59,541 nt of DNA from Anaerolineae bacterium (GCA_036172345.1 JASFBB010000034.1:1-59541), one strand, 5' to 3'; positions 3,715 to 15,644 are shown, numbered from the stretch's first letter. Program-made: numbers and translations. The notes: generated by a model from the sequence alone, not told the origin.

Positions 3715-5255
3715 TCACGTAGATTGTGCAATTTCCGCCATTTCATCCCAAACATCCCACGTCGCCTGGTAAAGGCGCCGGAAGATGTAGTAGATGCGCG
3801 CGTACTGGGCAGCACATCCAGGCTCAGGCAAACACTCACTCACTGGACGAACCATCGCGGCGACTGCCTGGTGATAGTCAGAAAACAGGCCAACCGCCAC
3901 AGCTGCATTTATTGCAGCTCCCTTGGCACCTAGCTCGACCCCTTCGAATAGTCTCATCGTCTTCCCCGTAACATTTGCCAGCATTTGCACCCAGAACGTA
4001 CTGCGAGCACCTCCTCCAGCCAACCTTACTGCGTTGACCTCAGCGGCCATATGTGCGTACAGTCGCGCAAAGCCAGAGCCACCCCTTAATAAACGGCACG
4101 TAACAGGTGATAACGTGTGTGAACAATGCTTAACCCGAAGAACTGGGCACGTGCCGTCGGCTTCACAAATGGAGCACGCTCACCACTGGGGTTGATAAAA
4201 GGATGGTAAATAACCCCACCCGCACCGGCAGGGATGAGACCCATTTTCTCCTCCAACCAGCTGTATATGTCCTGCCTATGCTGCTGGGCGGCAAGGAGAT
4301 CCTCCTGACAGAAATGTTCAATGTACCAATCCACACTTAGCGTACCACTCATAGCGGGCAATACACGGAGCCACCGATCGCGAGGCGCATAGCACATGGT
4401 ATAGCCAATGCCAGGTGGGTCAGTCAACGGTCGGTCAAGCACCATTTCGTGGATACCCGCCGTCCCGATGATGGAGCAAGCGTCACCTGCCTCCAATGCC
4501 CCGACACCCAGAGCAGCGGCGGCCACATCGAACGGCCCAGCAACAACCGGGGTATCAGGTGCTAACCCCAACTCGTCGGCGACGCGACGTTGCAGAGGTG
4601 CCTTATTTTCATACGCCGCATAGACCGGTGGCAGGAGTGACTGCCAGGCCTCAAGACCAAGCAGGGCCAAAACCTGCTCAGAGTAAGTGCGGTGTCGAAC
4701 GTCGAAGAAAGTGTGTGATACGTCCGATTCATCGCTGGAGACGTGGCCCGTCATCCGGAAAAAAACCCAATCTTTGGCGTGGACGGCGGCGCGAGACCTA
4801 GCAAGTGCCTCAGGTTCGTGAGCAGCCAGCCAACACAACTGCGACGATTGACTAGCAGGGTTGGGCACCGTGCCAGTGATGGCAAAAACGCGTTGACTTA
4901 ACCCTTCAGATAACCAACGCGCTACCAGATCCCCGCTGCGACCATCCAGCCAGATAATGGCACGTCGGACGGGTTGTCCATCGTGCCCAATCAACCAGGT
5001 TCCATCCCCTTGTCCAGTGATACCGATCGCTACGATATCTCTCCCTTGGAGCCCGCTTTGTGCCATCACTTGAGCTATGGTGTGCTTCACGGTTTGCCAA
5101 ACAACTTCCATATCTTGCTCAGCCCAACCTGGCATTGGCATCAACGTTTCGCTTTTCGCCGAAGCGGTCCAATGCTCCTGGCCACTCATATCGAAGACGG
5201 CGCTCTTGATGGCTGAGGTCCCGACATCAACGCCCAAGATGAAATCCGCAGCCAT
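3715..5255 (-). pseudogene. FGGY-family carbohydrate kinase (xylulokinase-like) broken by an in-frame TAA and a 1-nt frameshift
   Basis: ORF 5255-4086 is the N-terminal 389 aa ('FILGVDVGTSAIKSAVFD'). ORF 4050-3715 is the C-terminal 111 aa ('RLAGGGARSTFWVQMLANVTG'). The junction on the minus strand reads CGT GCC GTT TAT TAA GGG GTG GCT CTG GCT TTG CGC GAC TGT (RAVY*GVALALRDC). The frame then slips by one base before ATG GCC GCT GAG (MAAEV). Confidence 0.8.
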
Positions 5256-6766: not shown

Positions 6767-7411
6767 TCAACGTTGGCCATACTGGTTGGCATACAGGGCA
6801 GCTATCTCGGCCAGCTGCTCCGCTGTTAGGAGGATAGGCTGGCCACGTGTCATCGCCAAATGTGTGATCTTGGCAATTTCCTCCACCTCGACTGCTATCT
6901 TAGTCGCTACCCAGGGTGACGAGCCGATGGTGAAGATACCATGGTTCTGCATAATGATAGCCTGTGATTTGCCAATCTTCCGGACGATTTCAGCACCAAT
7001 GGCTTCGCCGCCGATGGGCACGTACGCACCCAGTGGCACCTCACCACCCAGCATAGCACTGGCAGTCAAACAGGCTGGGATGGGTTGTCCTAGCACAGCA
7101 AAAGTGGAAGCATACGGCGAGTGAGTGTGAGCTATGCCAAATACGTCAGGCCGATGGCGGTAGACGTACAAGTGGGTGCTGGTATCTATAGAAGGCACCA
7201 AGGTGCCCTCGACTACCTTGCCCTCTAAATCTACTACCACCATATGGGCTGGGGTCAGATCTTCATAGCGGTAGCCACTTGGTTTGATTACCACCAGGTC
7301 AGTGTCAGGATCACGCCCACTTACATTACCACTGGTCATTTTGACCAGTCCGTTTTTTGGCAGCTCTAAGTTGCACTTCCAAACTTCTTCACGGAGCGTC
7401 TCTAACATCAT
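6767..7411 (-). CDS. araD: L-ribulose-5-phosphate 4-epimerase / class II aldolase family
   Basis: 214 aa, colinear by eye with E. coli AraD: 'LPKNGLVKMTSGNVSGRD', 'VIKPSG', 'PSIDTSTH', 'IAHTHSPYAS'. Confidence 0.8.
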   Translation of the reverse strand: MMLETLREEVWKCNLELPKNGLVKMTSGNVSGRDPDTDLVVIKPSGYRYEDLTPAHMVVVDLEGKVVEGTLVPSIDTSTHLYVYRHRPDVFGIAHTHSPYASTFAVLGQPIPACLTASAMLGGEVPLGAYVPIGGEAIGAEIVRKIGKSQAIIMQNHGIFTIGSSPWVATKIAVEVEEIAKITHLAMTRGQPILLTAEQLAEIAALYANQYGQR

Positions 7412-7456: not shown

Positions 7457-8887
7457 TTAAGGATCACCACTATGAACTAATGCCCCTCCTTGCAATGTCA
7501 GTCTCTCCAAAAGCTGGCACAACTTGCGCCGATACCGTCGCGGATCAGTATACTTGTTCCATAACCGACGCGCTGTGCGTTTCAGCTGATTAATCGGCTT
7601 GCGTCTCTGGCTCTCAGCCAACGCCCACCGCATAAACTCCCAGTCGTGTCCCTTGATCTTCAGCTCGGTGGGATTGCGCCTGTATGAGTCGTAATCCTCA
7701 ATCAGCGAGAGTCCGTGCTCCATTGTGTAGTCATATAGATCGGTGCCGGGATGCGGCGTATAGAACGCCGGGCTATAATAGTCCGGATCGATCTCTTTAA
7801 GCATCGACACTGTCTCCAGCACTTCTTCTTGTGTCTCAGTGGGCATGCCGAGCATATAGTTTGCCCAGATAGTCAGGCCATACTTGCGGCAGATCTTCGC
7901 CGCTTCCAGATTAATGCGCCGAGTGGTGCCCTTGCGCAGGAACTTCAGCACGCGATCTGAGCCCGATTCAAAACCGATGAACAATCCCTTCAGCCCATTT
8001 GCCGCCATCAGGGCCACCGTCTCTTCGTGACGCACCATTAGATCGGCGCGTGCCTGACAGAAATAGGGCTGCCAAAACCCTCCCGTCCGGTATGCTTCCA
8101 CGAACTCCTCGCACCACCGATGGTCTTCCAGAAGACAATCATCGTGAAACATAAAGCTATTGAAATGATAGCGCTCCCGCAGCTCTTTGAGCTCGCCAAT
8201 AATATTGGACACCGAACGCCGACGCGTTCCTTTGCCGAACAAGAAATCCTCAGCCGGCTTGCAGAAGCTACAATTGTACATACAACCACGACCAGCAATG
8301 ATGGTGACAAAGGGCGGCGGCAGCTCCTCCACAAAGGGCACCTCAGGCGATCCCAGGTCATAGCCGAACTTGCGCCACTCATTGAGAAAGAGATCACGGT
8401 CGGCATAGGGTAACCGATCGAGATTGGGGTGGATGCCGATCAATAAGCGATCTTCCGGTGGTTGCCTTTCCGCGATGGCGCGTAACAAATTAGTGAACGT
8501 GATCTCCCCCTCCGCGACCACTACATAATCCACGCGCGGGTTGTCGAGCACACTCTGCGGCTCAAATGAAGGATGCGGTCCGCCCACCACAGTGACTGTA
8601 TCCGGCTTCGCTTCTTTGATGATCTCGACCGCCTTCATCACCGGATTGAAATCCACGCTCATCATCGTCAGGCCAACGATATCGGGGCTCCGTTGCAGAA
8701 ACTCCCGACGGAAATGGTCCCAGCCATCCAGAGCTCGCAGGTCGATCAAATCAATGGCAAAACCGTGGGCACGGGCGTAAGCGGAGATGCTCGCCAAACC
8801 GTGGCTGATCCAACCCGAGTCCATGCCCTGTTTCAAACTGTTAAACCCTTTGCCCGCGATGCCAGCGTAAATAAGCGTCGTCCTCAT
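7457..8887 (-). CDS. B12-binding-domain radical SAM enzyme (class B rSAM), paralogue A
   Basis: N-terminal cobalamin-binding-type domain ('DIVGLTMMS...TVVGGPHPS') and CX3CX2C motif 'GRGCMYNCSFC'. I place the start at ATG 8887 ('MRTTLIYAG'), 10 nt after the upstream stop, rather than at 8938. Confidence 0.85.
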   Translation of the reverse strand: MRTTLIYAGIAGKGFNSLKQGMDSGWISHGLASISAYARAHGFAIDLIDLRALDGWDHFRREFLQRSPDIVGLTMMSVDFNPVMKAVEIIKEAKPDTVTVVGGPHPSFEPQSVLDNPRVDYVVVAEGEITFTNLLRAIAERQPPEDRLLIGIHPNLDRLPYADRDLFLNEWRKFGYDLGSPEVPFVEELPPPFVTIIAGRGCMYNCSFCKPAEDFLFGKGTRRRSVSNIIGELKELRERYHFNSFMFHDDCLLEDHRWCEEFVEAYRTGGFWQPYFCQARADLMVRHEETVALMAANGLKGLFIGFESGSDRVLKFLRKGTTRRINLEAAKICRKYGLTIWANYMLGMPTETQEEVLETVSMLKEIDPDYYSPAFYTPHPGTDLYDYTMEHGLSLIEDYDSYRRNPTELKIKGHDWEFMRWALAESQRRKPINQLKRTARRLWNKYTDPRRYRRKLCQLLERLTLQGGALVHSGDP

Positions 8888-8897
8888 AAACTTCACC

Positions 8898-9746
8898 TCA
8901 CTGCACTGCCGGGGGTGTGATGACCACCGGACGGTCAAAAGCAGACAGAGTCAAAAACCAAGAAATCGCTTCCTTGTTCTCGGTAGCCTGTTCCTCGATC
9001 TGCGCCTGATATAAGAGGAATGTTTGCTTTCCTACCCATACGTCAATGACAGCTCCCCCTCCTTCACCAGAGGTGGTCACATTGACACCCGGCGCACCAC
9101 GTGCTTGCAAATGATAAGCGGGCACGCCTTGTACTTCGTCAGAACCGACCATATGCCACTCCAAAGCCGCCAGCAAGGCGGGCAGCCCCTGCTCGGGATT
9201 GAACCATACAGAGGGCGAGATAGACCAACTTATCTCCGGGGAGAGCTTTTCCCACTTGCCGGTAAGAGGGTTGTTGAGATATACCCGGCCTTGGTAGCGT
9301 ACCAGCTCCAGATGTGTCGAAGCACCCAAAATGGTCACCGTAACACGGGCACGCAGCTGATCAGGTCGCACAACGTCGCCCTCGATTCCGGTCAAAAGGA
9401 CAGGCAGCGGCAAGTTCAACGGTGACCCTATATTGGGTTTGCTGCCGCTGGGACGAACTGAAAAATGAAAGGTTTCCACCTTGGCCATACGCACTGCAGC
9501 TCGTTTGGCTATATCGTGTGCACTCAACTGTGTGGCTGAGGGTGACACTGAGCTGCTCAGCTCGGTAGGTGTGGGCGTGAGCGTCGGTATGGAGAAGGGT
9601 GTCGGCGTGACAGCTAGCATAGTGGGCAAACTGACGTTACACGCCACCACGAACGCCATCAGAGTAGAAGCTATGGCGAAATGCCATAAGTTCCATCTGC
9701 CCCGCCGAATTCTCTCCACTAACATGTCCTTGTGGCACTTGCTCAT
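8898..9746 (-). CDS. lipoprotein with LolA/LprG (LppX_LprAFG)-like domain
   Basis: Signal peptide plus lipobox 'AFVVAC', then a Thr/Pro linker. A ~200-aa domain follows ('ETFHFSV...LTGIEGDVVRPDQL...VRYQGRVYLNNPLTGKWEKL') whose pattern resembles LprG/LppX lipid-binding lipoproteins. Start chosen at ATG 9746, 5 nt after the upstream stop. The family call is pattern-based only. Confidence 0.55.
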   Translation of the reverse strand: MSKCHKDMLVERIRRGRWNLWHFAIASTLMAFVVACNVSLPTMLAVTPTPFSIPTLTPTPTELSSSVSPSATQLSAHDIAKRAAVRMAKVETFHFSVRPSGSKPNIGSPLNLPLPVLLTGIEGDVVRPDQLRARVTVTILGASTHLELVRYQGRVYLNNPLTGKWEKLSPEISWSISPSVWFNPEQGLPALLAALEWHMVGSDEVQGVPAYHLQARGAPGVNVTTSGEGGGAVIDVWVGKQTFLLYQAQIEEQATENKEAISWFLTLSAFDRPVVITPPAVQ

Positions 9747-9751
9747 TTCGG

Positions 9752-11233
9752 CTACGCAGACTCCATCGCTTTTCTCAAGTCTTCCCTCTCCCGACGCGGG
9801 AAAAGTGTGCGATAGGCCAGTCGGAACGTGCGGCGCCAGTTGATCCAAAAATCCTTGCGCAATAGGGTGCGTATGATGCGGTGGGGACGCAGATAGAAAC
9901 GTCGATAGGCTTCACGCCACTTACGCTCGACCAGCTCGGCGGTCAGAGCCCCCATCTCGTAGCGCGCCCTGCCTTCGAAGAAGACATACTCATCCCAGTC
10001 CGTCACCAACATACGACCATGCTCCTTAACGATCTCATACACTCTCGTGCCTGGGTAAGGGGTCATCATAGAGAAATTGGCGATCATGGGATCGAGCTCG
10101 CAAGCAAAGCGGATAGTGCGCTCCATTGTTTCCTCCGTTTCCCCGGGCAAGCCGATGATGAAAAAACCGATCGTCTCCAGGCCAACTTCTTTGGCATTCT
10201 TGAATGCCCGCCGGATTGTATCCATGTCGATGCGTTTGTTGATCGAACGCAAGATTTCCGGATCGCCCGACTCGACCCCGAAGGCGGTGCGCTTCAACCC
10301 GGCCTGTTTCATGCGTGCCAGCAGCTCCTTGGAAGCAAGATCGGCGCGGATGCCGTTGACGAAGATCCAGGGCACATGATTCAGATGATGTTCGATGAGC
10401 AAGTCGGAAAGGCGCATCAGTCGGTCCGCGCGGATGTTGGCGCTGTCGTCCAACACACCGATCTCCTGTGCACCCAGGTCCTCAACCAGATGACGCCACT
10501 CCAACAGGATGTTCTCGGGAGTGCGTGCACGCCATTTTTGCGGCATGATGCTTTGCGAACAATATGTGCAACGGTAGGGACAGCCACGCGAAGTGAGAAT
10601 GCTGAAACTTCGGGCGCCATCCACCGCATCAACGGCCGGTTGCAGGTTGGTGTAGCGTTCCATCTTAAAGTAATGGTAGGCCGGCCAGGGGAGGCCGTCC
10701 AGATCGGCAATGGGCGGTCTCGCGGGATTGTGATGCACATTGCCATCTGCAGTCTGATAGGTAATGCCTTGCACTTGGTCCAGAATACGGGCTTGCGGGT
10801 CAAGCAGCTGGCTGACGGTGAGACGGGGCGCTGCCTGGAGTGCGCGCTCCAGGACGGCGCTCAGTTCCAGCCACGTCTCCTCGCCTTCGCCGCGAACTAC
10901 GATATCCACCTCCGTGCGACTGGCACTCTCCTCCGGCAAAACGGATGGATGCGGACCACCCAGCACGATCGGCACATCCCGCACGTTCTTGATCGCTTGC
11001 GCGGTGCGCCAGGCTTGCTTGACCTGGGGGGTATTGGCTGTGATGCCTACCAAATGGGGTTCGAAACGGCGCACCACATCGACGACACTCTCATCCTCTA
11101 CGTCAGCGTCGAAGACTATCACCTCGTCACCACGTCGTTCTGAAACGGCGGCTAAGTAGGCCAACCCCAGATGAGGTGTCGTGCGCGTGTCGATCGGCAG
11201 ACGAAATCTAGGATTGACCAGCAGAACTCGCAT
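9752..11233 (-). CDS. B12-binding-domain radical SAM enzyme (class B rSAM), paralogue B
   Basis: 493 aa with 'HLVGITANT...IVLGGPHPS' and CX3CX2C motif 'SRGCPYRCTYC', plus 'FGVESGDPEIL' and 'IIGLPGET'. AGGAG lies 9 nt before the ATG. Confidence 0.85.
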   Translation of the reverse strand: MRVLLVNPRFRLPIDTRTTPHLGLAYLAAVSERRGDEVIVFDADVEDESVVDVVRRFEPHLVGITANTPQVKQAWRTAQAIKNVRDVPIVLGGPHPSVLPEESASRTEVDIVVRGEGEETWLELSAVLERALQAAPRLTVSQLLDPQARILDQVQGITYQTADGNVHHNPARPPIADLDGLPWPAYHYFKMERYTNLQPAVDAVDGARSFSILTSRGCPYRCTYCSQSIMPQKWRARTPENILLEWRHLVEDLGAQEIGVLDDSANIRADRLMRLSDLLIEHHLNHVPWIFVNGIRADLASKELLARMKQAGLKRTAFGVESGDPEILRSINKRIDMDTIRRAFKNAKEVGLETIGFFIIGLPGETEETMERTIRFACELDPMIANFSMMTPYPGTRVYEIVKEHGRMLVTDWDEYVFFEGRARYEMGALTAELVERKWREAYRRFYLRPHRIIRTLLRKDFWINWRRTFRLAYRTLFPRREREDLRKAMESA

Positions 11234-11316
11234 ATCAGCGTTTCTCCTAAGAAGGTTTACAGGTGATAAACTTCAGCACCTTGTTGGATCGTCCTTTCTG
11301 TTGACCAACATACTCT

Positions 11317-11346
11317 ATTTTACCCGATCACCCGAAGGGGCGTCAA
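11317..11346 (-). promoter_or_regulatory. sigma70-type promoter of the rSAM-lipoprotein-rSAM operon
   Basis: Minus strand reads TTGACG (11346-11341), 18 nt, TAAAAT (11322-11317), about 75 nt upstream of ATG 11233. Confidence 0.5.
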
Positions 11347-11544: not shown

Positions 11545-12033
11545 TCAGTCGCCCAGAAAGCTATCCAGATTGAGAAGGGCGTATAACACCGACGCAGCAG
11601 GGATAAGCGCGGCACAGATCACACCTGGATAGTCCGGCTGCGGCACCAGAAGTCCCACTAGGGGTATGATCAGAGTGAGCAACAGGCCGAACATCAAGCT
11701 TCCGTATAGGCCACCGATGTGCCGTCCGAACACCAACAGGGCCAACGCCAAGCTGATCACGCTACAGGCAAACAGGAACACAGCCGCTCCCAACCAAGCG
11801 AGATGATGGGTCGCAAGGGTTGACCAGCTCTCATCTGTGCCCAGGAGAATCCCCATAAAACGGATCGCGCTCAACACACTGCTCATGGCGAAAAAGAATG
11901 CGGTCCCGACCCAGAATGCCACCAATGGCCACAGACGCGGATGGCTTATGAACGAGTGGGGGCGTACAAATGGGCGCGGAGCTGGGATGAGCCGGGTATC
12001 GTGATCGGATGGGGTTGGCACGGCGTGTGTCAT
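11545..12033 (-). CDS. hypothetical integral membrane protein (about 4 TM segments)
   Basis: 162 aa with four long hydrophobic stretches. It lies co-directionally downstream of fmt. No recognisable family. Confidence 0.5.
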   Translation of the reverse strand: MTHAVPTPSDHDTRLIPAPRPFVRPHSFISHPRLWPLVAFWVGTAFFFAMSSVLSAIRFMGILLGTDESWSTLATHHLAWLGAAVFLFACSVISLALALLVFGRHIGGLYGSLMFGLLLTLIIPLVGLLVPQPDYPGVICAALIPAASVLYALLNLDSFLGD

Positions 12034-12106: not shown

Positions 12107-13057
12107 TTAGAGTAACCGGCTGCCGATGAATTCGCGTGCGCCGCGTGCGAATTCTGTTGCCGTCATGGGACGCCGTCCTGCCAGTTGTACTTCCAGCAAC
12201 CGCACCATTCCTGCACCAGTGAGTACGCATATCCCTTCGGGTGTTGTCATCACAGTGCCCGGCGGATGAGCGGATGGATCGGCTACCTCCGGCGAAGCCG
12301 GCATAGCTCGTGCCTTGAGGATTTTGAGCGGGACACCACGCCATTCCGTGAAGGTGCCTGGCCATGGGTGAAATGCGCGCACCTGGCGTGCAATGAACTC
12401 CGCAGGCTGTTCCCAATGGATGTGCCCCTGCTCTTTTTTGAGCGGCGGCGCCCAGGTGACCTGTGTCTCATCCTGCGGACAGGGGGTTATACGCCCGGCC
12501 AACCAGTCGGGCAGCGTCTGGCCCAACAAGGAGGCACCCAGCTGGCTCAACTTGTGGGTCAGCGTCTCCTGTGTGTCATCTGGCGCGATGGGTAGCTCGG
12601 CCTGGCGGATGATCGGCCCGCTGTCCAGGCCGGCATCCATTTGCATCAGGGTGACCCCCGTGCGTTCGTCACCCGCCAGAATCGCTGCGGCAACCGGGGC
12701 AGCACCGCGCCAGCGCGGCAGCAGTGAGGCGTGTACATTGATGCACCCATGCGGCGGCAGCTCCAATACGGCTGGTGGAAGCAGCATGCCAAACGCAGCC
12801 ACCACGATCACATCTGCTTGCCAGGAACGCAGCTGTTCCACAACCTCATCCTGCCGCAACGAAGAAGGGGTAATCACCGGTAGATGATGTTGCGATGCCA
12901 ACTTATGCACTGGTGAGGGTCGCATTTGAAGACCGCGCCCGCTGGGACGTTCCATTTGGGTTACCACGCCGACCACTTGGCCCATGTCCAACAATACCTG
13001 CAAGCTGGGCAAGGCAAATTTAGGTGTCCCCATAAAGACGACACGTGGACGGGACAT
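12107..13057 (-). CDS. fmt: methionyl-tRNA formyltransferase
   Basis: 316 aa with 'VVFMGTPKFALPSL' and 'INVHASLLPRWRGAAP'. Its start codon overlaps the murI stop. Confidence 0.92.
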   Translation of the reverse strand: MSRPRVVFMGTPKFALPSLQVLLDMGQVVGVVTQMERPSGRGLQMRPSPVHKLASQHHLPVITPSSLRQDEVVEQLRSWQADVIVVAAFGMLLPPAVLELPPHGCINVHASLLPRWRGAAPVAAAILAGDERTGVTLMQMDAGLDSGPIIRQAELPIAPDDTQETLTHKLSQLGASLLGQTLPDWLAGRITPCPQDETQVTWAPPLKKEQGHIHWEQPAEFIARQVRAFHPWPGTFTEWRGVPLKILKARAMPASPEVADPSAHPPGTVMTTPEGICVLTGAGMVRLLEVQLAGRRPMTATEFARGAREFIGSRLL

Positions 13058-13923
13058 TACCCTTGCTCCTCAGCCGAGCATATACTCCGCTCACAGTGGT
13101 CGCAAATGAGGCTAAGACGACCGGCGCGCCAGGTAAGACGCTCCACTGGCCACTCTCGACCGGTAGAGCGCATCAGCAACAATTGGAGCACGTCCGGTGC
13201 AGCGGTGACGAAGAAACGATGCTCCGACGGGCTACCCTCGGGGTAGCTGTTCCCTGCGCCAAGTGCGTGCACACAACGCTCAACCTGACGTGCCACAGCT
13301 TCTGCCGGGTCGATCACCGTCACGTCAGGGGGTAAAATGCGCTGCATAACCGGTAACAGGAAGGGGTAGTGCGTGCAACCCAACACCAGCTGATCCACCC
13401 CGGCGTCTATCATAGGTTGTAGGCAGTTGCGCAATAGCTGCTCAGTCTCCGGCGCATCGATCTGACCCTGCTCCACGCACTGGACCAAGCGATCATCCGT
13501 TTGGATGTGCAGAGCTACATCGCGCGCATAGCGCACCGCCGTGGCGCGAAATAAAGCACCTTTCAAGGTGCCATGGGTCGCCAATACGCCAATATGACCG
13601 CTACGCGTCTGCTGCGCAGCCGGCTTCACCGCTGGTTCCAGACCCACAAAGGGCACGGAGAAACGTGCACGCAGCCACTGCAACGCTGCTGCTGAGGCGG
13701 TGTTACATGCCACCACAATCAACTTTGCGCCCTGCGCTAACAGAAACCGCGTGATCGCTGCAGAGAAACGGCGCAGTTCACGGGGTGGCCGCGGGCCATA
13801 TGGGCAGTGCGCATTATCCGCCACATAGAGCGTCGCGCAGGTTGGCAAGCGACGTTGCACTGCTTGCCAGATGGATAATCCTCCCACACCTGAGTCAAAA
13901 AATCCGATGGTGATAGAATGCAT
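13057..13923 (-). CDS. murI: glutamate racemase
   Basis: 288 aa with 'GFFDSGVGGLS' and both catalytic Cys motifs, 'VVACNTASA' and 'LGCTHYPF'. Confidence 0.92.
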   Translation of the reverse strand: MHSITIGFFDSGVGGLSIWQAVQRRLPTCATLYVADNAHCPYGPRPPRELRRFSAAITRFLLAQGAKLIVVACNTASAAALQWLRARFSVPFVGLEPAVKPAAQQTRSGHIGVLATHGTLKGALFRATAVRYARDVALHIQTDDRLVQCVEQGQIDAPETEQLLRNCLQPMIDAGVDQLVLGCTHYPFLLPVMQRILPPDVTVIDPAEAVARQVERCVHALGAGNSYPEGSPSEHRFFVTAAPDVLQLLLMRSTGREWPVERLTWRAGRLSLICDHCERSICSAEEQG

Positions 13924-13935
13924 CAGTGACGACGC

Positions 13936-14616
13936 TCATACGCTCGATTCGGCCTGACGTTTCTCCGCGCCGCCATAGACACCGCGCAGGTCCTCGCGCA
14001 CCAGGGCGGCGATGCGCTGCATCACCAGATCACTGAGCGCCTGGAGCTGCTCACTCTTCCGTGGTCCTTGTATCTGCGGCAGTATGAAAGGTTCCCCTAC
14101 GCGCACTACGATATGGGGTCGCCGGAAACGTTTCCATTCAGTTGTCAGCTTCTCCTGGCCGGAGATGCCCACCGGTATGATGGGCACGCTCGCCTTGGTG
14201 GCTAGATAGGCAATACCGGGCTTGGCACGTTGCATCACGCCGGTGCGGCTGCGCGTGCCCTCAGGAGCGATCCCCAACACCCCACCATTCTGCAATACAG
14301 CCAGGCAACGTTGCAGAGCTTCACGATCCACCTCGCCACGGCGCACATAAATGCCACCGTCCATCTTCACCAGCCAGCTGATCGGCCACGAGCCAGCCCA
14401 CTTCTCTCCGATGAGTACTGTTATATGGCGCAACGGGAGCGCCAGCATCACCAGCGGTGGGTCGACATAGTGCAGATGATTGACTGCGACGATCAACGGC
14501 CCCTTGGTTGGCAGGTTGGGCGGGCGGTGGAATTCACAGCGCGTTAGCAGCTTCGCCAACACCCAAAATATCGCCCGTAACAGTTGATACAAGATCACAT
14601 TATACCAACGTGGCAT
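13936..14616 (-). CDS. plsC: 1-acyl-sn-glycerol-3-phosphate acyltransferase
   Basis: HX4D motif 'NHLHYVDPP' and 'IAPEGTRS'. Start placed at ATG 14616, which has GGAGGA upstream, rather than the GTG at 14643. Confidence 0.85.
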   Translation of the reverse strand: MPRWYNVILYQLLRAIFWVLAKLLTRCEFHRPPNLPTKGPLIVAVNHLHYVDPPLVMLALPLRHITVLIGEKWAGSWPISWLVKMDGGIYVRRGEVDREALQRCLAVLQNGGVLGIAPEGTRSRTGVMQRAKPGIAYLATKASVPIIPVGISGQEKLTTEWKRFRRPHIVVRVGEPFILPQIQGPRKSEQLQALSDLVMQRIAALVREDLRGVYGGAEKRQAESSV

Positions 14617-14669
14617 AGAGATCCTCCATCCTTTCCCTTCCACAACTTAAATGTTCCAAAATGGAACCA

Positions 14670-15644
14670 TTATGGCGGCAACTGGCCCTGAGCAAGAATC
14701 GAATACGTCACCACTGGACTGCCTATCATGATCAGCTCCACTTGGAAAGGTGTGATCGCTGTAGCGCGCAAGAGCGTGACATCCAGTGGTGCCTGGCGCA
14801 CCGCCGCCACTCGTCCTTGTTCATCGTAGCCGGTAACCAACACGCGTACATGCGTTGCGTCACTGTCGCCCACATTACGCAGCTGGCCGCTCACACGATA
14901 GGTTGTCGCGCTGAGCACCTCACCGCGCACACCGCTGACGAGCAAGTCAAAATAATAACCCATCGCAGACATATAGGGAATCCCGCTCAGCACTGACGCT
15001 TGATATTGGGCAAATCGGGAGGGCGGGTCAGTAAAATGAATGGCAAAAGCAACCGCTTGGCGCGGTGGCACCACATCCAGCTGAAGATATCCTCTCTCAG
15101 CTGCTAGTTGCTGACCTTCTCCATCCAAAAGTGCCACCTGCATCAAAACGTTAGTCACTGGCATAGTACCCGGGTTGTACACCTCGCCCAGCACCCACAA
15201 ACCTTCGGCTGGCGTGCGCTGAAAGTTCACCTTTTGCACCTCCAAAGGAAGAGGCGTGGGGGTGGGCCAAGAGGATTCTGGAGTCTCGTCTTGCGGTGCC
15301 GGAATGATCAATACTCGCCCCAACTGGAGACGACGCGGGTCAATGATGCCATTCGCCTCTTGAATCGACTGCACCGAGACGCCGAACTGAGCAGCGATAG
15401 CCAACAGAGTATCGCCCGGTTGCACCGTATACAGGACAGGCGTAGGAGTCACTGTGGGTGTGAAGGTCGGTATAGGTGTCATAGGCACCAAGGTAAAAGT
15501 GGGGCGTGATATAGGCGCCAAGGTTACCGTGGCGCTCGGCAGAGCAACCACAGGGGTACCGGTTGGCACCGGCGTGATGATCTGGCCACAACTGACCGCT
15601 AACAGAGCGAAAACCATCACAGGCAGAGTTGATAATTTCCTCAT
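14670..15644 (-). CDS. LysM-domain lipoprotein
   Basis: Signal peptide and lipobox 'LLAVSC', a Thr/Pro linker, then LysM 'YTVQPGDTLLAIAAQFGVSVQSIQEANGI'. The C-terminal ~200 aa are unassigned. Confidence 0.8.
   Translation of the reverse strand: MRKLSTLPVMVFALLAVSCGQIITPVPTGTPVVALPSATVTLAPISRPTFTLVPMTPIPTFTPTVTPTPVLYTVQPGDTLLAIAAQFGVSVQSIQEANGIIDPRRLQLGRVLIIPAPQDETPESSWPTPTPLPLEVQKVNFQRTPAEGLWVLGEVYNPGTMPVTNVLMQVALLDGEGQQLAAERGYLQLDVVPPRQAVAFAIHFTDPPSRFAQYQASVLSGIPYMSAMGYYFDLLVSGVRGEVLSATTYRVSGQLRNVGDSDATHVRVLVTGYDEQGRVAAVRQAPLDVTLLRATAITPFQVELIMIGSPVVTYSILAQGQLPP

What the first reader, a model, noticed from the sequence alone, without database searches (positions are those of the whole stretch)
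7457..11346. Two paralogous B12-binding radical-SAM enzymes translationally coupled to an LprG/LolA-like lipoprotein
Seen in sequence, on the minus strand:
- A TTGACG-18-TAAAAT promoter (11346-11317) drives rSAM-B (11233-9752).
- A 5-nt gap separates it from a lipoprotein (9746-8898, lipobox 'VVAC', TP linker).
- A 10-nt gap separates that from rSAM-A (8887-7457).
- A 45-nt gap separates that from an araD-like gene.
- Both rSAMs have an N-terminal cobalamin-binding-type domain and a CX3CX2C motif. They are clear paralogues, for example 'VVGGPHPS...AEGE' versus 'VLGGPHPS...GEGE', and 'IGFESGSDRVL' versus 'FGVESGDPEIL'.

Established knowledge: class B rSAM enzymes modify unactivated carbons in lipids (hopanoid methylases HpnP/HpnR), cofactors and RiPPs. 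LprG/LppX-type lipoproteins bind and ferry envelope (glyco)lipids.

Inference: the sandwich arrangement suggests the lipoprotein either carries the enzymes' lipid product to the envelope or is itself the substrate. I saw no precursor-peptide ORF and no other lipid-synthesis genes, so the chemistry is unassigned.
Basis: partly seen in the sequence, partly recalled or inferred. Interest (0 to 1): 0.62.

Follow-up and report, generated by a model that had tools for sequence, protein, structure and literature searches.

The report
Radical-SAM pair flanking LprG-like lipoprotein
A hot-spring Chloroflexota bacterium keeps two uncharacterised radical-SAM enzymes and a mycobacterial-LprG-type lipid-carrier lipoprotein in one tight operon; relatives suggest the enzymes tailor sugars of an envelope glycolipid or glycan, not lipid chains.

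Summary
The three genes are real, at the stated coordinates, and tightly spaced. The triad rSAM-B / lipoprotein / rSAM-A recurs in 11 non-redundant loci of related Chloroflexota, with differing flanks.

The lipoprotein is a genuine LprG-type protein. It matches Pfam LppX_LprAFG, has an invariant lipobox Cys, and its AlphaFold model matches M. tuberculosis LprG best (TM 0.76-0.79).

The two enzymes are only 28% identical. They are not recent duplicates but members of two separate, highly conserved Chloroflexota families. Neither reaches the cut-off of any curated family (HpnJ, BchE and others).

Three context results change the reading:
- rSAM-B usually lies in a larger multi-radical-SAM cluster.
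- In other lineages rSAM-B is followed by the same lipoprotein plus an MFS pump whose best solved relative is the Rv1410-type triacylglyceride transporter, that is an lprG-rv1410-like pair.
- rSAM-A orthologues sit between rmlA and rmlB inside capsule/EPS-type loci in 4 of 6 sampled genomes (a fifth has rmlA but no rmlB).

Best reading (about 40%): sugar-tailoring radical-SAM enzymes co-expressed with an LprG-like carrier for a lipid-anchored envelope glycoconjugate. The product is unknown.

The parts
11317..11346 (-). candidate sigma-70-type promoter, TTGACG-18-TAAAAT
   Evidence: Scan match of 10 of 12 positions. Conserved in the nearest relative L001 only. Such sites are not enriched over shuffled sequence. 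No Rfam element lies in the 311-nt leader.
9752..11233 (-). rSAM-B: radical SAM enzyme with a B12-binding-type domain, 493 aa, CPYRCTYC cluster motif, basic amphipathic C-terminal tail
   Evidence: Pfam PF02310 and PF04055. Best NCBIfam hit is HpnJ at 203 bits against a cut-off of 577.6. The family is 70-94% identical across Anaerolineae, Caldilineaceae and Ardenticatenaceae, with hits in 269 species genomes. GGAG lies 10 nt before the ATG.
8898..9746 (-). LprG/LppX-family lipoprotein: signal peptide, lipobox VVAC (Cys36), a Thr/Pro-rich linker of about 36 residues, then the LprG-fold domain
   Evidence: PF07161, 51.9 bits. Invariant Cys. AlphaFold2 mean pLDDT 77.6. Foldseek top hits are Mtb LprG 3MH9/3MH8/3MHA/4ZRA at E about 1e-13 and TM (target-normalised) 0.76-0.79, followed by LprF, LppX and LolA.
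7457..8887 (-). rSAM-A: radical SAM enzyme with a B12-binding-type domain, 476 aa, CMYNCSFC cluster motif. Its GAGGTG ribosome site overlaps the lipoprotein stop codon.
   Evidence: Pfam PF02310 and PF04055. Best NCBIfam hit is HpnJ at 138 bits against 577.6. Orthologues lie between RmlA and RmlB in L168, L170, L171 and L172. All copies form one tight orthologous family in the tree.

Best explanation
The operon couples two cytoplasmic radical-SAM enzymes that tailor carbohydrate with an LprG-type lipoprotein that handles the lipid-anchored product on the outer face of the membrane.

Shown:
- The three genes form a conserved, tightly spaced unit.
- The lipoprotein has the LprG fold and a lipobox.
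- In other Chloroflexota the same lipoprotein follows rSAM-B together with an Rv1410-type MFS pump, the partner LprG has in mycobacteria.
- rSAM-A belongs to one orthologous family whose other members sit between the genes for glucose-1-phosphate thymidylyltransferase (RmlA) and dTDP-glucose 4,6-dehydratase (RmlB) in loci with Wzz, BY-kinase and CpsB.

Inferred:
- rSAM-A acts on a dTDP-6-deoxyhexose intermediate, or on that sugar once installed. The reaction could be C-methylation, dehydration, epimerisation or ring rearrangement.
- rSAM-B, which co-clusters with rSAM-A in several lineages, performs a second radical step on the same glycoconjugate.
- The modified sugar ends up on a glycolipid or lipoglycan.
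- The lipoprotein binds its acyl chains and passes it outward, helped by an MFS pump encoded elsewhere in this genome.
For: - Triad conservation: 11 non-redundant B-LIP-A loci have changed flanks (fmt/obg; sortase/ABC; others). Gaps are 3-13 nt, or an 8-nt overlap.
- LprG identity: Pfam hit, invariant lipobox Cys, fold match to PIM-bound and TAG-bound LprG structures.
- Link to lipid export: six loci (L007, L036, L042, L059, L095, L097) have B-LIP-MFS-DUF3352. The MFS scores 155 bits (E 2.5e-44) to 8PNL 'putative triacylglyceride transporter'; the next hit scores 57 bits. LIP then MFS is the rule for the family, 46 of 55 loci. The role of LprG-Rv1410 in TAG and lipoarabinomannan export is published (PMC4709180, PMC6519032, PMC10576003).
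- Sugar link: RmlA (470-480 bits, cut-off 320), then rSAM-A, then RmlB (445-476 bits, cut-off 365), inside Wzz/BY-kinase/CpsB loci. The rSAM-A tree shows one tight family, with the rml-linked copies basal.
- B-A linkage without the lipoprotein: L053, L055, L035, L167, L048, L072 and L074.
- The nearest characterised relatives act on sugars: HpnJ is the best NCBIfam hit and AprD4 (6FD2) the best solved relative of rSAM-B.
Against: - No sugar-nucleotide, glycosyltransferase, MFS or lipid-synthesis gene of the pathway lies in the 59.5-kb window. The rest of the genome could not be searched.
- Most rSAM-B loci (about 80%) have no lipoprotein next to them, and only 5 of 40 lipoprotein loci have rSAM-B upstream. 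The link is therefore facultative.
- L036 and L044 carry nearly identical rSAM-B genes but differ in having the LIP-MFS-DUF3352 module, so the module is gained or lost easily.
- Nothing bears directly on rSAM-B's substrate. Its usual neighbours are Fe-S and Moco housekeeping genes (SufR, MoaA, IscA, NifU, rhodanese).
- Similarities to HpnJ and AprD4 are far below family cut-offs.
- No experiment exists for any member.
Confidence: 0.4

Rival explanations
1. Co-location without a shared substrate. The two enzymes make a modified sugar for a capsule, EPS or S-layer glycan, or some other molecule. The LprG-like gene does an independent lipid-transport job and was merely captured in the operon after losing its MFS neighbour.
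For: The lipoprotein family is normally paired with the MFS and no radical-SAM gene (46 of 55 loci; rSAM-B upstream in only 5 of 40). Most rSAM-B loci lack the lipoprotein. The LIP-MFS-DUF3352 module comes and goes between near-identical rSAM-B genes (L036 against L044). Hitchhiking genes (Uma2, PIN) are common inside these clusters.
Against: The sandwich with 3-13-nt gaps has persisted while rSAM-B diverged to 77% identity and the lipoprotein to 35-36% identity, and while both flanks were replaced. The lipoprotein lies immediately downstream of rSAM-B, on the same strand, in two different architectures, B-LIP-A and B-LIP-MFS.
Confidence: 0.25
2. The enzymes methylate or cross-link unactivated carbons of acyl or isoprenoid chains, as HpnP/HpnR, Tes/Mss or the ladderane enzymes do, and the lipoprotein ferries the altered lipid.
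For: Mycobacterial LprG-Rv1410 moves triacylglycerides (PMC4709180, PMC10576003), and its homologous pair sits next to rSAM-B in relatives. Sub-threshold hits exist to HpnJ, HpnR and the ladderane-type lipid rSAM model. Both enzymes have basic amphipathic C-terminal tails that could sit on a membrane. A PlsC-type acyltransferase lies 2.7 kb upstream.
Against: rSAM-A orthologues are embedded between rmlA and rmlB. Neither enzyme hits the solved tetraether synthase at E <= 0.01. All lipid-family NCBIfam scores are well below their cut-offs, by a factor of about 3 or more. No fatty-acid, isoprenoid or hopanoid genes appear in any of the loci examined.
Confidence: 0.2
3. The lipoprotein is the acceptor of the product. 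Its Thr/Pro-rich linker is O-glycosylated with the sugar tailored by the two enzymes.
For: In the triad clade the linker between the lipobox Cys and the folded domain is about 36 residues and rich in TP/TPTP. In the MFS-linked relatives it is about 10-15 residues. PMT_2-type glycosyltransferases lie near the rmlA-rSAM-A-rmlB unit in L168 and L170. My own knowledge: mycobacterial LprG is itself O-glycosylated.
Against: No glycosyltransferase lies in the window's operon. TP-rich linkers are common in lipoproteins without any glycosylation. There is no direct evidence.
Confidence: 0.1
4. The lipoprotein, or a missed small peptide, is modified directly by the radical-SAM enzymes, as in a RiPP-like or Mmp10/QCMT-like protein modification.
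For: The best solved relative of rSAM-A by sequence is the MCR glutamine C-methyltransferase 9CCB. There are sub-threshold hits to RiPP rSAM models such as ApyD.
Against: No precursor-like ORF is conserved. The upstream 162-aa four-TM ORF is kept only in the closest relatives and is replaced in L004. Both enzyme families occur mostly without the lipoprotein. Identity of 70% or more across a bacterial class is atypical for RiPP tailoring enzymes.
Confidence: 0.03

Closest known systems
Mycobacterial lprG-rv1410c (P55) operon: lipoprotein plus MFS pump that export triacylglycerides and lipoarabinomannan
   Same: The lipoprotein has the same Pfam family, lipobox and fold. In related Chloroflexota it is followed by an MFS whose best solved relative is the Rv1410 homologue 8PNL. 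The lipoprotein-then-MFS order is the norm for the family.
   Different: In this window the MFS is not adjacent; the lipoprotein is flanked by two radical-SAM genes instead. Sequence identity to LprG is about 20%. The host is a Chloroflexota bacterium without a mycomembrane. A DUF3352 protein is a third member of the module in relatives. The ligand is unknown.
HpnJ, the B12-domain radical SAM enzyme proposed to contract the glucosamine ring on bacteriohopanetetrol
   Same: It is the best NCBIfam match for both enzymes (203 and 138 bits). It is a radical-SAM enzyme thought to act on a sugar attached to a membrane lipid, which is the kind of job proposed here.
   Different: Scores are far below the 577.6-bit cut-off. 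No hopanoid genes (shc, hpnH, hpnI, hpnK) lie in any locus examined.
AprD4 (6FD2) and the sugar C-methylases GenK/GenD1: B12-domain-type radical SAM enzymes that tailor aminoglycoside sugars
   Same: AprD4 is the best solved sequence relative of rSAM-B (92.6 bits). It is among the top fold matches (from a low-confidence model). Like rSAM-A's inferred role, these enzymes carry out radical chemistry on sugar carbons.
   Different: Those enzymes act on pseudo-oligosaccharide antibiotics in Actinobacteria. Here the context is rmlA/rmlB and envelope polysaccharide genes. AprD4 does not bind cobalamin (PMC12931638), and whether these enzymes do is unknown.
The multi-radical-SAM cluster of Anaerolineae and Caldilineae
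   Same: rSAM-B and rSAM-A are members of two of its constituent families.
   Different: The window carries only B and A, with the lipoprotein inserted. B2, B3, rsA2, rsX, the SPASM enzyme and the 68-aa partner protein are absent from the 59.5 kb.

Membership tests
Class B (B12-binding-domain) radical SAM enzymes | N-terminal Rossmann-type B12-binding domain followed by a radical SAM core | tested here: met
   PF02310 scores 85.4 and 76.0 bits (cut-off 32.1). PF04055 scores 102.9 and 68.1 bits (cut-off 29.5). Fold matches include TsrM, AprD4, MgmA, OxsB and CysS (low-confidence model).
Class B (B12-binding-domain) radical SAM enzymes | CX3CX2C motif for the [4Fe-4S] cluster | tested here: met
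   CPYRCTYC at residue 218 of rSAM-B and CMYNCSFC at residue 202 of rSAM-A. The three Cys are invariant in 22 rSAM-B homologues.
Class B (B12-binding-domain) radical SAM enzymes | Actual cobalamin binding and use | not testable with these tools
   AprD4, the nearest solved relative of rSAM-B, has the domain but binds no cobalamin (PMC12931638). No cobalamin riboswitch lies upstream.
HpnJ (hopanoid cyclitol-ether radical SAM) | Score at or above the TIGR03471 cut-off, with a hopanoid gene context | tested here: not met
   203.3 and 138.4 bits against a cut-off of 577.6. No hopanoid genes in the window or in related loci.
BchE, HpnR, ladderane-type rSAM, PhpK, BzaD, QCMT and RiPP C-methylases | Score at or above the curated NCBIfam cut-off | tested here: not met
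   All hits fall well below their cut-offs, for example BchE 171.7 against 481 and TIGR04072 119.5 against 360.
Tetraether synthase Tes / GDGT-MAS | Detectable sequence similarity to the solved enzyme (7TOL) | tested here: not met
   7TOL is not among the PDB hits at E <= 0.01 for either enzyme.
LppX/LprG/LprA/LprF lipoproteins (PF07161) | Pfam match above the gathering score | tested here: met
   51.9 bits against 24, covering model positions 4-191 of 192.
LppX/LprG/LprA/LprF lipoproteins (PF07161) | Signal peptide with a lipobox Cys | tested here: met
   The sequence reads ...RIRRGRWNLWHFAIASTLMAFVVAC. The Cys is invariant in alignment A1 and conserved in at least 90% of the wider alignment A3.
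LppX/LprG/LprA/LprF lipoproteins (PF07161) | LprG-type fold (half beta-barrel plus helices enclosing a lipid pocket) | tested here: met
   Foldseek top hits are LprG 3MH9/3MH8/3MHA/4ZRA at E 1.6e-13 to 3.5e-12 and TM (target-normalised) 0.76-0.79, followed by LprF and LppX.
lprG-rv1410c-type two-gene lipid export operon | Rv1410-type MFS gene directly downstream of the lipoprotein gene | tested here: not met
   The MFS is absent from the whole 59.5-kb window. It is present in relatives L007, L036, L042, L059 and L095 and in 46 of 55 metagenome loci. Its presence elsewhere in this genome could not be tested.
lprG-rv1410c-type two-gene lipid export operon | Binding of acylated lipid or glycolipid ligands | not testable with these tools
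   This needs purification of the protein and lipid mass spectrometry.
RiPP biosynthetic cluster | A conserved precursor-peptide gene next to the maturases | tested here: not met
   No conserved small ORF was found. The upstream 162-aa membrane ORF is kept only in the closest relatives.

The most novel reading that the evidence does not exclude
The triad is the stripped-down core of a Chloroflexota-wide pathway in which B12-domain radical-SAM enzymes perform a so-far undescribed radical step on a dTDP-6-deoxyhexose, for example C-branching or ring rearrangement. The resulting sugar marks a lipid-anchored envelope polymer that an LprG-type carrier escorts outward. This would be the first LprG-dependent lipoglycan system outside the Actinobacteria, and a signature envelope molecule of Anaerolineae.
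Probability: 0.22. Interest if true: 0.75.

Novelty: new variant of a known kind. Interest (0 to 1): 0.55.

Why it matters
Anaerolineae, Caldilineae and Ardenticatenia are abundant in sediments, hot springs, sponges and wastewater sludge, yet their envelope chemistry is poorly known. Both enzyme families are exceptionally conserved (65-94% identity among the homologues listed) and have no characterised member.

Tying one family to the rmlA/rmlB branch point gives a concrete biochemical hypothesis that can be tested in vitro: dTDP-4-keto-6-deoxyglucose as substrate. Tying the other to an LprG/Rv1410-like module indicates where to look for the product. No paper in the library mentions LprG together with Chloroflexi.

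If confirmed, this would add a new reaction type for B12-domain radical-SAM enzymes on nucleotide sugars. It would also extend the LprG lipid-carrier paradigm beyond mycobacteria.

Tried and rejected
- Whole-genome search for the missing partners (MFS, rmlA/B, B2, SPASM): the genome search and the fetch from genomes were shut. Only the 59.5-kb window could be searched, with negative results.
- Riboswitch or other RNA in the 311-nt leader of rSAM-B, or anywhere in the window: none.
- Profile search of the lipoprotein alignment against PDB sequences: no hit. The relationship shows only at the Pfam and fold level.
- AlphaFold2 model of rSAM-B from the 22-sequence alignment: mean pLDDT 61, too poor for more than confirming the class-B architecture.
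- The conserved small membrane ORF upstream (11545-12033) as a fourth member or a substrate: rejected, because it is replaced by an unrelated soluble ORF in L004.
- Extra genes inside related clusters as clues (c85, c28, c64, c27, c62 and others): these turned out to be regulators, Uma2, PIN, RtcB and enoyl-CoA hydratase, and are uninformative.
- RNA-seq support for co-transcription: only DNA runs from a hot-spring metagenome hold the sequence.
- Literature: no paper links these families, or LprG, to Chloroflexota. Reported Tes/Mss homologues in Chloroflexota (PMC11868695, PMC13159169) could not be equated with these proteins. Neither enzyme shows detectable similarity to the solved Tes; Mss could not be compared.
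- DUF3352 partner protein: no informative solved relative.

Full report
**What is in the window**

On the minus strand lie four genes:
- rSAM-B, 9752-11233, 493 aa
- a lipoprotein, 8898-9746, 282 aa
- rSAM-A, 7457-8887, 476 aa
- an araD-like class II aldolase/epimerase, 6767-7411

The gaps are 5, 10 and 45 nt. A GAGGTG ribosome site for rSAM-A overlaps the lipoprotein stop codon. GGAG lies 10 nt before the rSAM-B start.

Both enzymes carry a B12-binding-type domain and a radical SAM core above the Pfam cut-offs. Each has a single CX3CX2C motif.

The lipoprotein matches PF07161 LppX_LprAFG (51.9 bits, cut-off 24). It has a basic n-region, a hydrophobic h-region and the lipobox VVAC. The Cys is invariant in 21 homologues.

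The proposed promoter at 11346-11317 is a 10-of-12 consensus match. Such sites are no more frequent here than in shuffled sequence, and only the nearest relative keeps it. The 311-nt leader holds no Rfam element.

The source is a hot-spring metagenome. The closest database proteins are labelled Ardenticatenia or Anaerolineae.

**The enzymes are not close paralogues**

They share 28% identity. Each belongs to its own large and unusually conserved family.
- The 120 best rSAM-B homologues are 70-94% identical, and 269 species genomes gave hits, all in Chloroflexota.
- The 120 best rSAM-A homologues are 64-94% identical.

Neither reaches the curated cut-off of any NCBIfam family. The best hit for both is HpnJ (203 and 138 bits against 577.6), then BchE. 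The nearest solved structures by sequence are AprD4 and the MCR glutamine C-methyltransferase 9CCB. The tetraether synthase is not hit (the identity of 9CCB is from PMC12931638).

**The triad is conserved**

Lookups of lipoprotein homologues returned rSAM-B / lipoprotein / rSAM-A in every case. Gaps were 3-13 nt, or an 8-nt overlap. Flanks differed: fmt and an Obg-like GTPase in L001 and L002, sortase and ABC transporters in L004.

I scanned one genome per species with an rSAM-B alignment and scanned metagenomes with a lipoprotein alignment. I then searched the loci with my own HMMs. This gave 11 non-redundant triad loci.

Within them rSAM-B falls to 77% identity and the lipoprotein to 35-36% identity to the window's copies. 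The unit is therefore old.

A 162-aa four-TM ORF upstream (11545-12033) is kept only in the nearest relatives and is not part of the unit.

**The lipoprotein is LprG-like**

An AlphaFold2 model was built from the 21-sequence alignment. It has mean pLDDT 77.6, with the folded domain mostly at 83-95 and the linker below 50. Its best matches in the PDB are:
- M. tuberculosis LprG: apo, PIM-bound and TAG-bound forms, E about 1e-13, TM 0.76-0.79 normalised by the target
- then LprF and LppX
- then, much more weakly, LolA, LolB and RseB

**Wider context of rSAM-B**

In most of the 80 species loci rsSAM-B is part of a large cluster. The typical order is rsA2, a 68-aa protein, a 99-aa protein, SufR, MoaA, IscA, DUF2203, NifU, rhodanese, B, B2 (42% identical to B), a radical SAM/SPASM enzyme, an FHA-PD40 protein and rsX. 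A variant order is B, B3, SPASM2, A, B2. None of these enzymes reaches a curated family cut-off.

rSAM-B and rSAM-A are also directly adjacent without the lipoprotein in Ardenticatenaceae and others: L053, L055, L035 and L167. The two enzymes are therefore linked independently of the lipoprotein.

None of the other cluster members lies in the 59.5-kb window.

**The lipoprotein's usual partner**

In L007, L036, L042, L059, L095 and L097 rSAM-B is followed by the same lipoprotein family, then an MFS transporter and a DUF3352 protein. In three of these B2 comes next.

The MFS scores 155 bits (E 2.5e-44) to PDB 8PNL, 'putative triacylglyceride transporter', the Rv1410 homologue. The next hit, EmrB, scores 57 bits.

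Across 77 metagenome loci of the lipoprotein family:
- 46 of the 55 with at least 600 nt downstream have this MFS next
- 3 have rSAM-A next
- only 5 of the 40 with enough upstream sequence have rSAM-B upstream

The ancestral unit is thus an lprG-rv1410-like pair. In mycobacteria that pair exports triacylglycerides and lipoarabinomannan (PMC4709180, PMC6519032, PMC10576003).

In part of the Anaerolineae the pair sits directly after rSAM-B. In the window's clade the MFS has left the locus and rSAM-A follows instead.

In the rSAM-B tree, rooted with B2, the triad loci form the basal grade. The MFS-type loci are scattered through the next clades. L036 and L044 have near-identical rSAM-B genes but differ in having the module. 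The association is therefore recurrent but facultative.

**Wider context of rSAM-A**

I looked up six rSAM-A homologues (66-70% identical), chosen only because they lie on long contigs.
- L167 lies in a multi-radical-SAM cluster next to rSAM-B.
- The other five lie in capsule/EPS-type loci with the order glycosyltransferase, Wzz, Wzz, BY-kinase, CpsB, nucleotidyltransferase, rSAM-A, SDR enzyme.

NCBIfam names the flanking genes above their cut-offs. One is glucose-1-phosphate thymidylyltransferase (TIGR01208, 470-480 bits against 320). The other is dTDP-glucose 4,6-dehydratase (TIGR01181, 445-476 bits against 365).

In a tree all rSAM-A copies form one tight family. Internal branches are about 0.1-0.35, against 3.5 to the outgroups. 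The rml-linked copies are basal, and the triad and multi-rSAM copies are nested clades.

The window's rSAM-A is therefore an orthologue of an enzyme inserted at the dTDP-4-keto-6-deoxyglucose branch point. No rmlA or rmlB lies in the window.

**Interpretation**

The data favour carbohydrate over acyl-chain chemistry for rSAM-A. By association (B-A adjacency; HpnJ and AprD4 as nearest characterised relatives, both sugar-acting) they make it plausible for rSAM-B too.

LprG-type proteins bind acylated glycolipids and lipoglycans as well as TAG. The most economical model is that the operon co-expresses sugar-tailoring enzymes with the carrier of the lipid-anchored glycoconjugate that bears the sugar. 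I put this at about 0.4.

The main rival, at about 0.25, is that the lipoprotein was simply captured and has an unrelated ligand. O-glycosylation of the lipoprotein's own expanded Thr/Pro linker gets about 0.1 (the linker is about 36 residues here and 10-15 in MFS-linked relatives). Direct radical modification of the protein gets about 0.03.

Both enzymes have their most amphipathic, most basic segment at the C-terminus. This would fit work at the membrane surface but is weak evidence.

**Limits**

- The genome outside the window could not be searched, so the whereabouts of the MFS and the rml genes in this organism are unknown.
- rSAM-B's substrate is inferred only by association.
- The rSAM-B structure model was poor.
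- No transcript data exist.

Earlier notes of this scan describe the same triad in another genome, the multi-radical-SAM module, and rmlA-rSAM-rmlB arrangements. I reached the cluster and rml results from my own searches before reading those notes. They agree with my results but are not independent support.

Noticed in passing
L008, L020, L036, L048, L087 and about 60 other loci: A large conserved cluster in Anaerolineae and Caldilineae: rsA2, a 68-aa protein, a 99-aa protein, SufR, MoaA, IscA, DUF2203, NifU, rhodanese, rSAM-B, B2, radical SAM/SPASM, FHA-PD40, rsX. It holds up to five B12-domain radical-SAM paralogues, and none reaches a curated family cut-off.
   Followed up: partly
L168 6891-10565; L170 5853-9693; L171 5789-9769; L172 5903-9438: rmlA, rSAM-A orthologue and rmlB lie as one unit inside loci with Wzz, BY-kinase and CpsB. 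No rmlC or rmlD is adjacent. This suggests an undescribed radical step at the dTDP-4-keto-6-deoxyglucose branch point.
   Followed up: partly
L093-L166 (metagenome loci), L007 8602-12776: Pairs of an LprG-like lipoprotein and an Rv1410-like MFS, often with a DUF3352 protein, are common in metagenomes (46 of 55 loci). No paper in the library mentions LprG together with Chloroflexi.
   Followed up: partly
L036 against L044: Two genomes from one study have nearly identical rSAM-B genes. They differ in whether the LIP-MFS-DUF3352 module lies between B and B2, so the module is gained or lost quickly.
   Followed up: no
window 11545-12033 (-): A 162-aa ORF with four predicted TM helices and no Pfam or NCBIfam match. 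It is conserved upstream of rSAM-B only in the nearest relatives (L001, L002/L003).
   Followed up: partly
window 8898-9746 (-): The database product for this gene (P0125, 253 aa) starts at Met30 and so lacks the signal peptide. Homologues support a start at Met1 or Met8.
   Followed up: yes
window 4086-5255 (-): The FGGY sugar kinase ORF stops after 389 aa, with only about two thirds of the C-terminal domain (profile positions 2-128 of 198).
   Followed up: no
window 12107-15644 (-): The order LysM protein, PlsC-type acyltransferase, glutamate racemase and methionyl-tRNA formyltransferase upstream of the triad is shared with L001 and L002 but not with L004, L010 or L012.
   Followed up: partly
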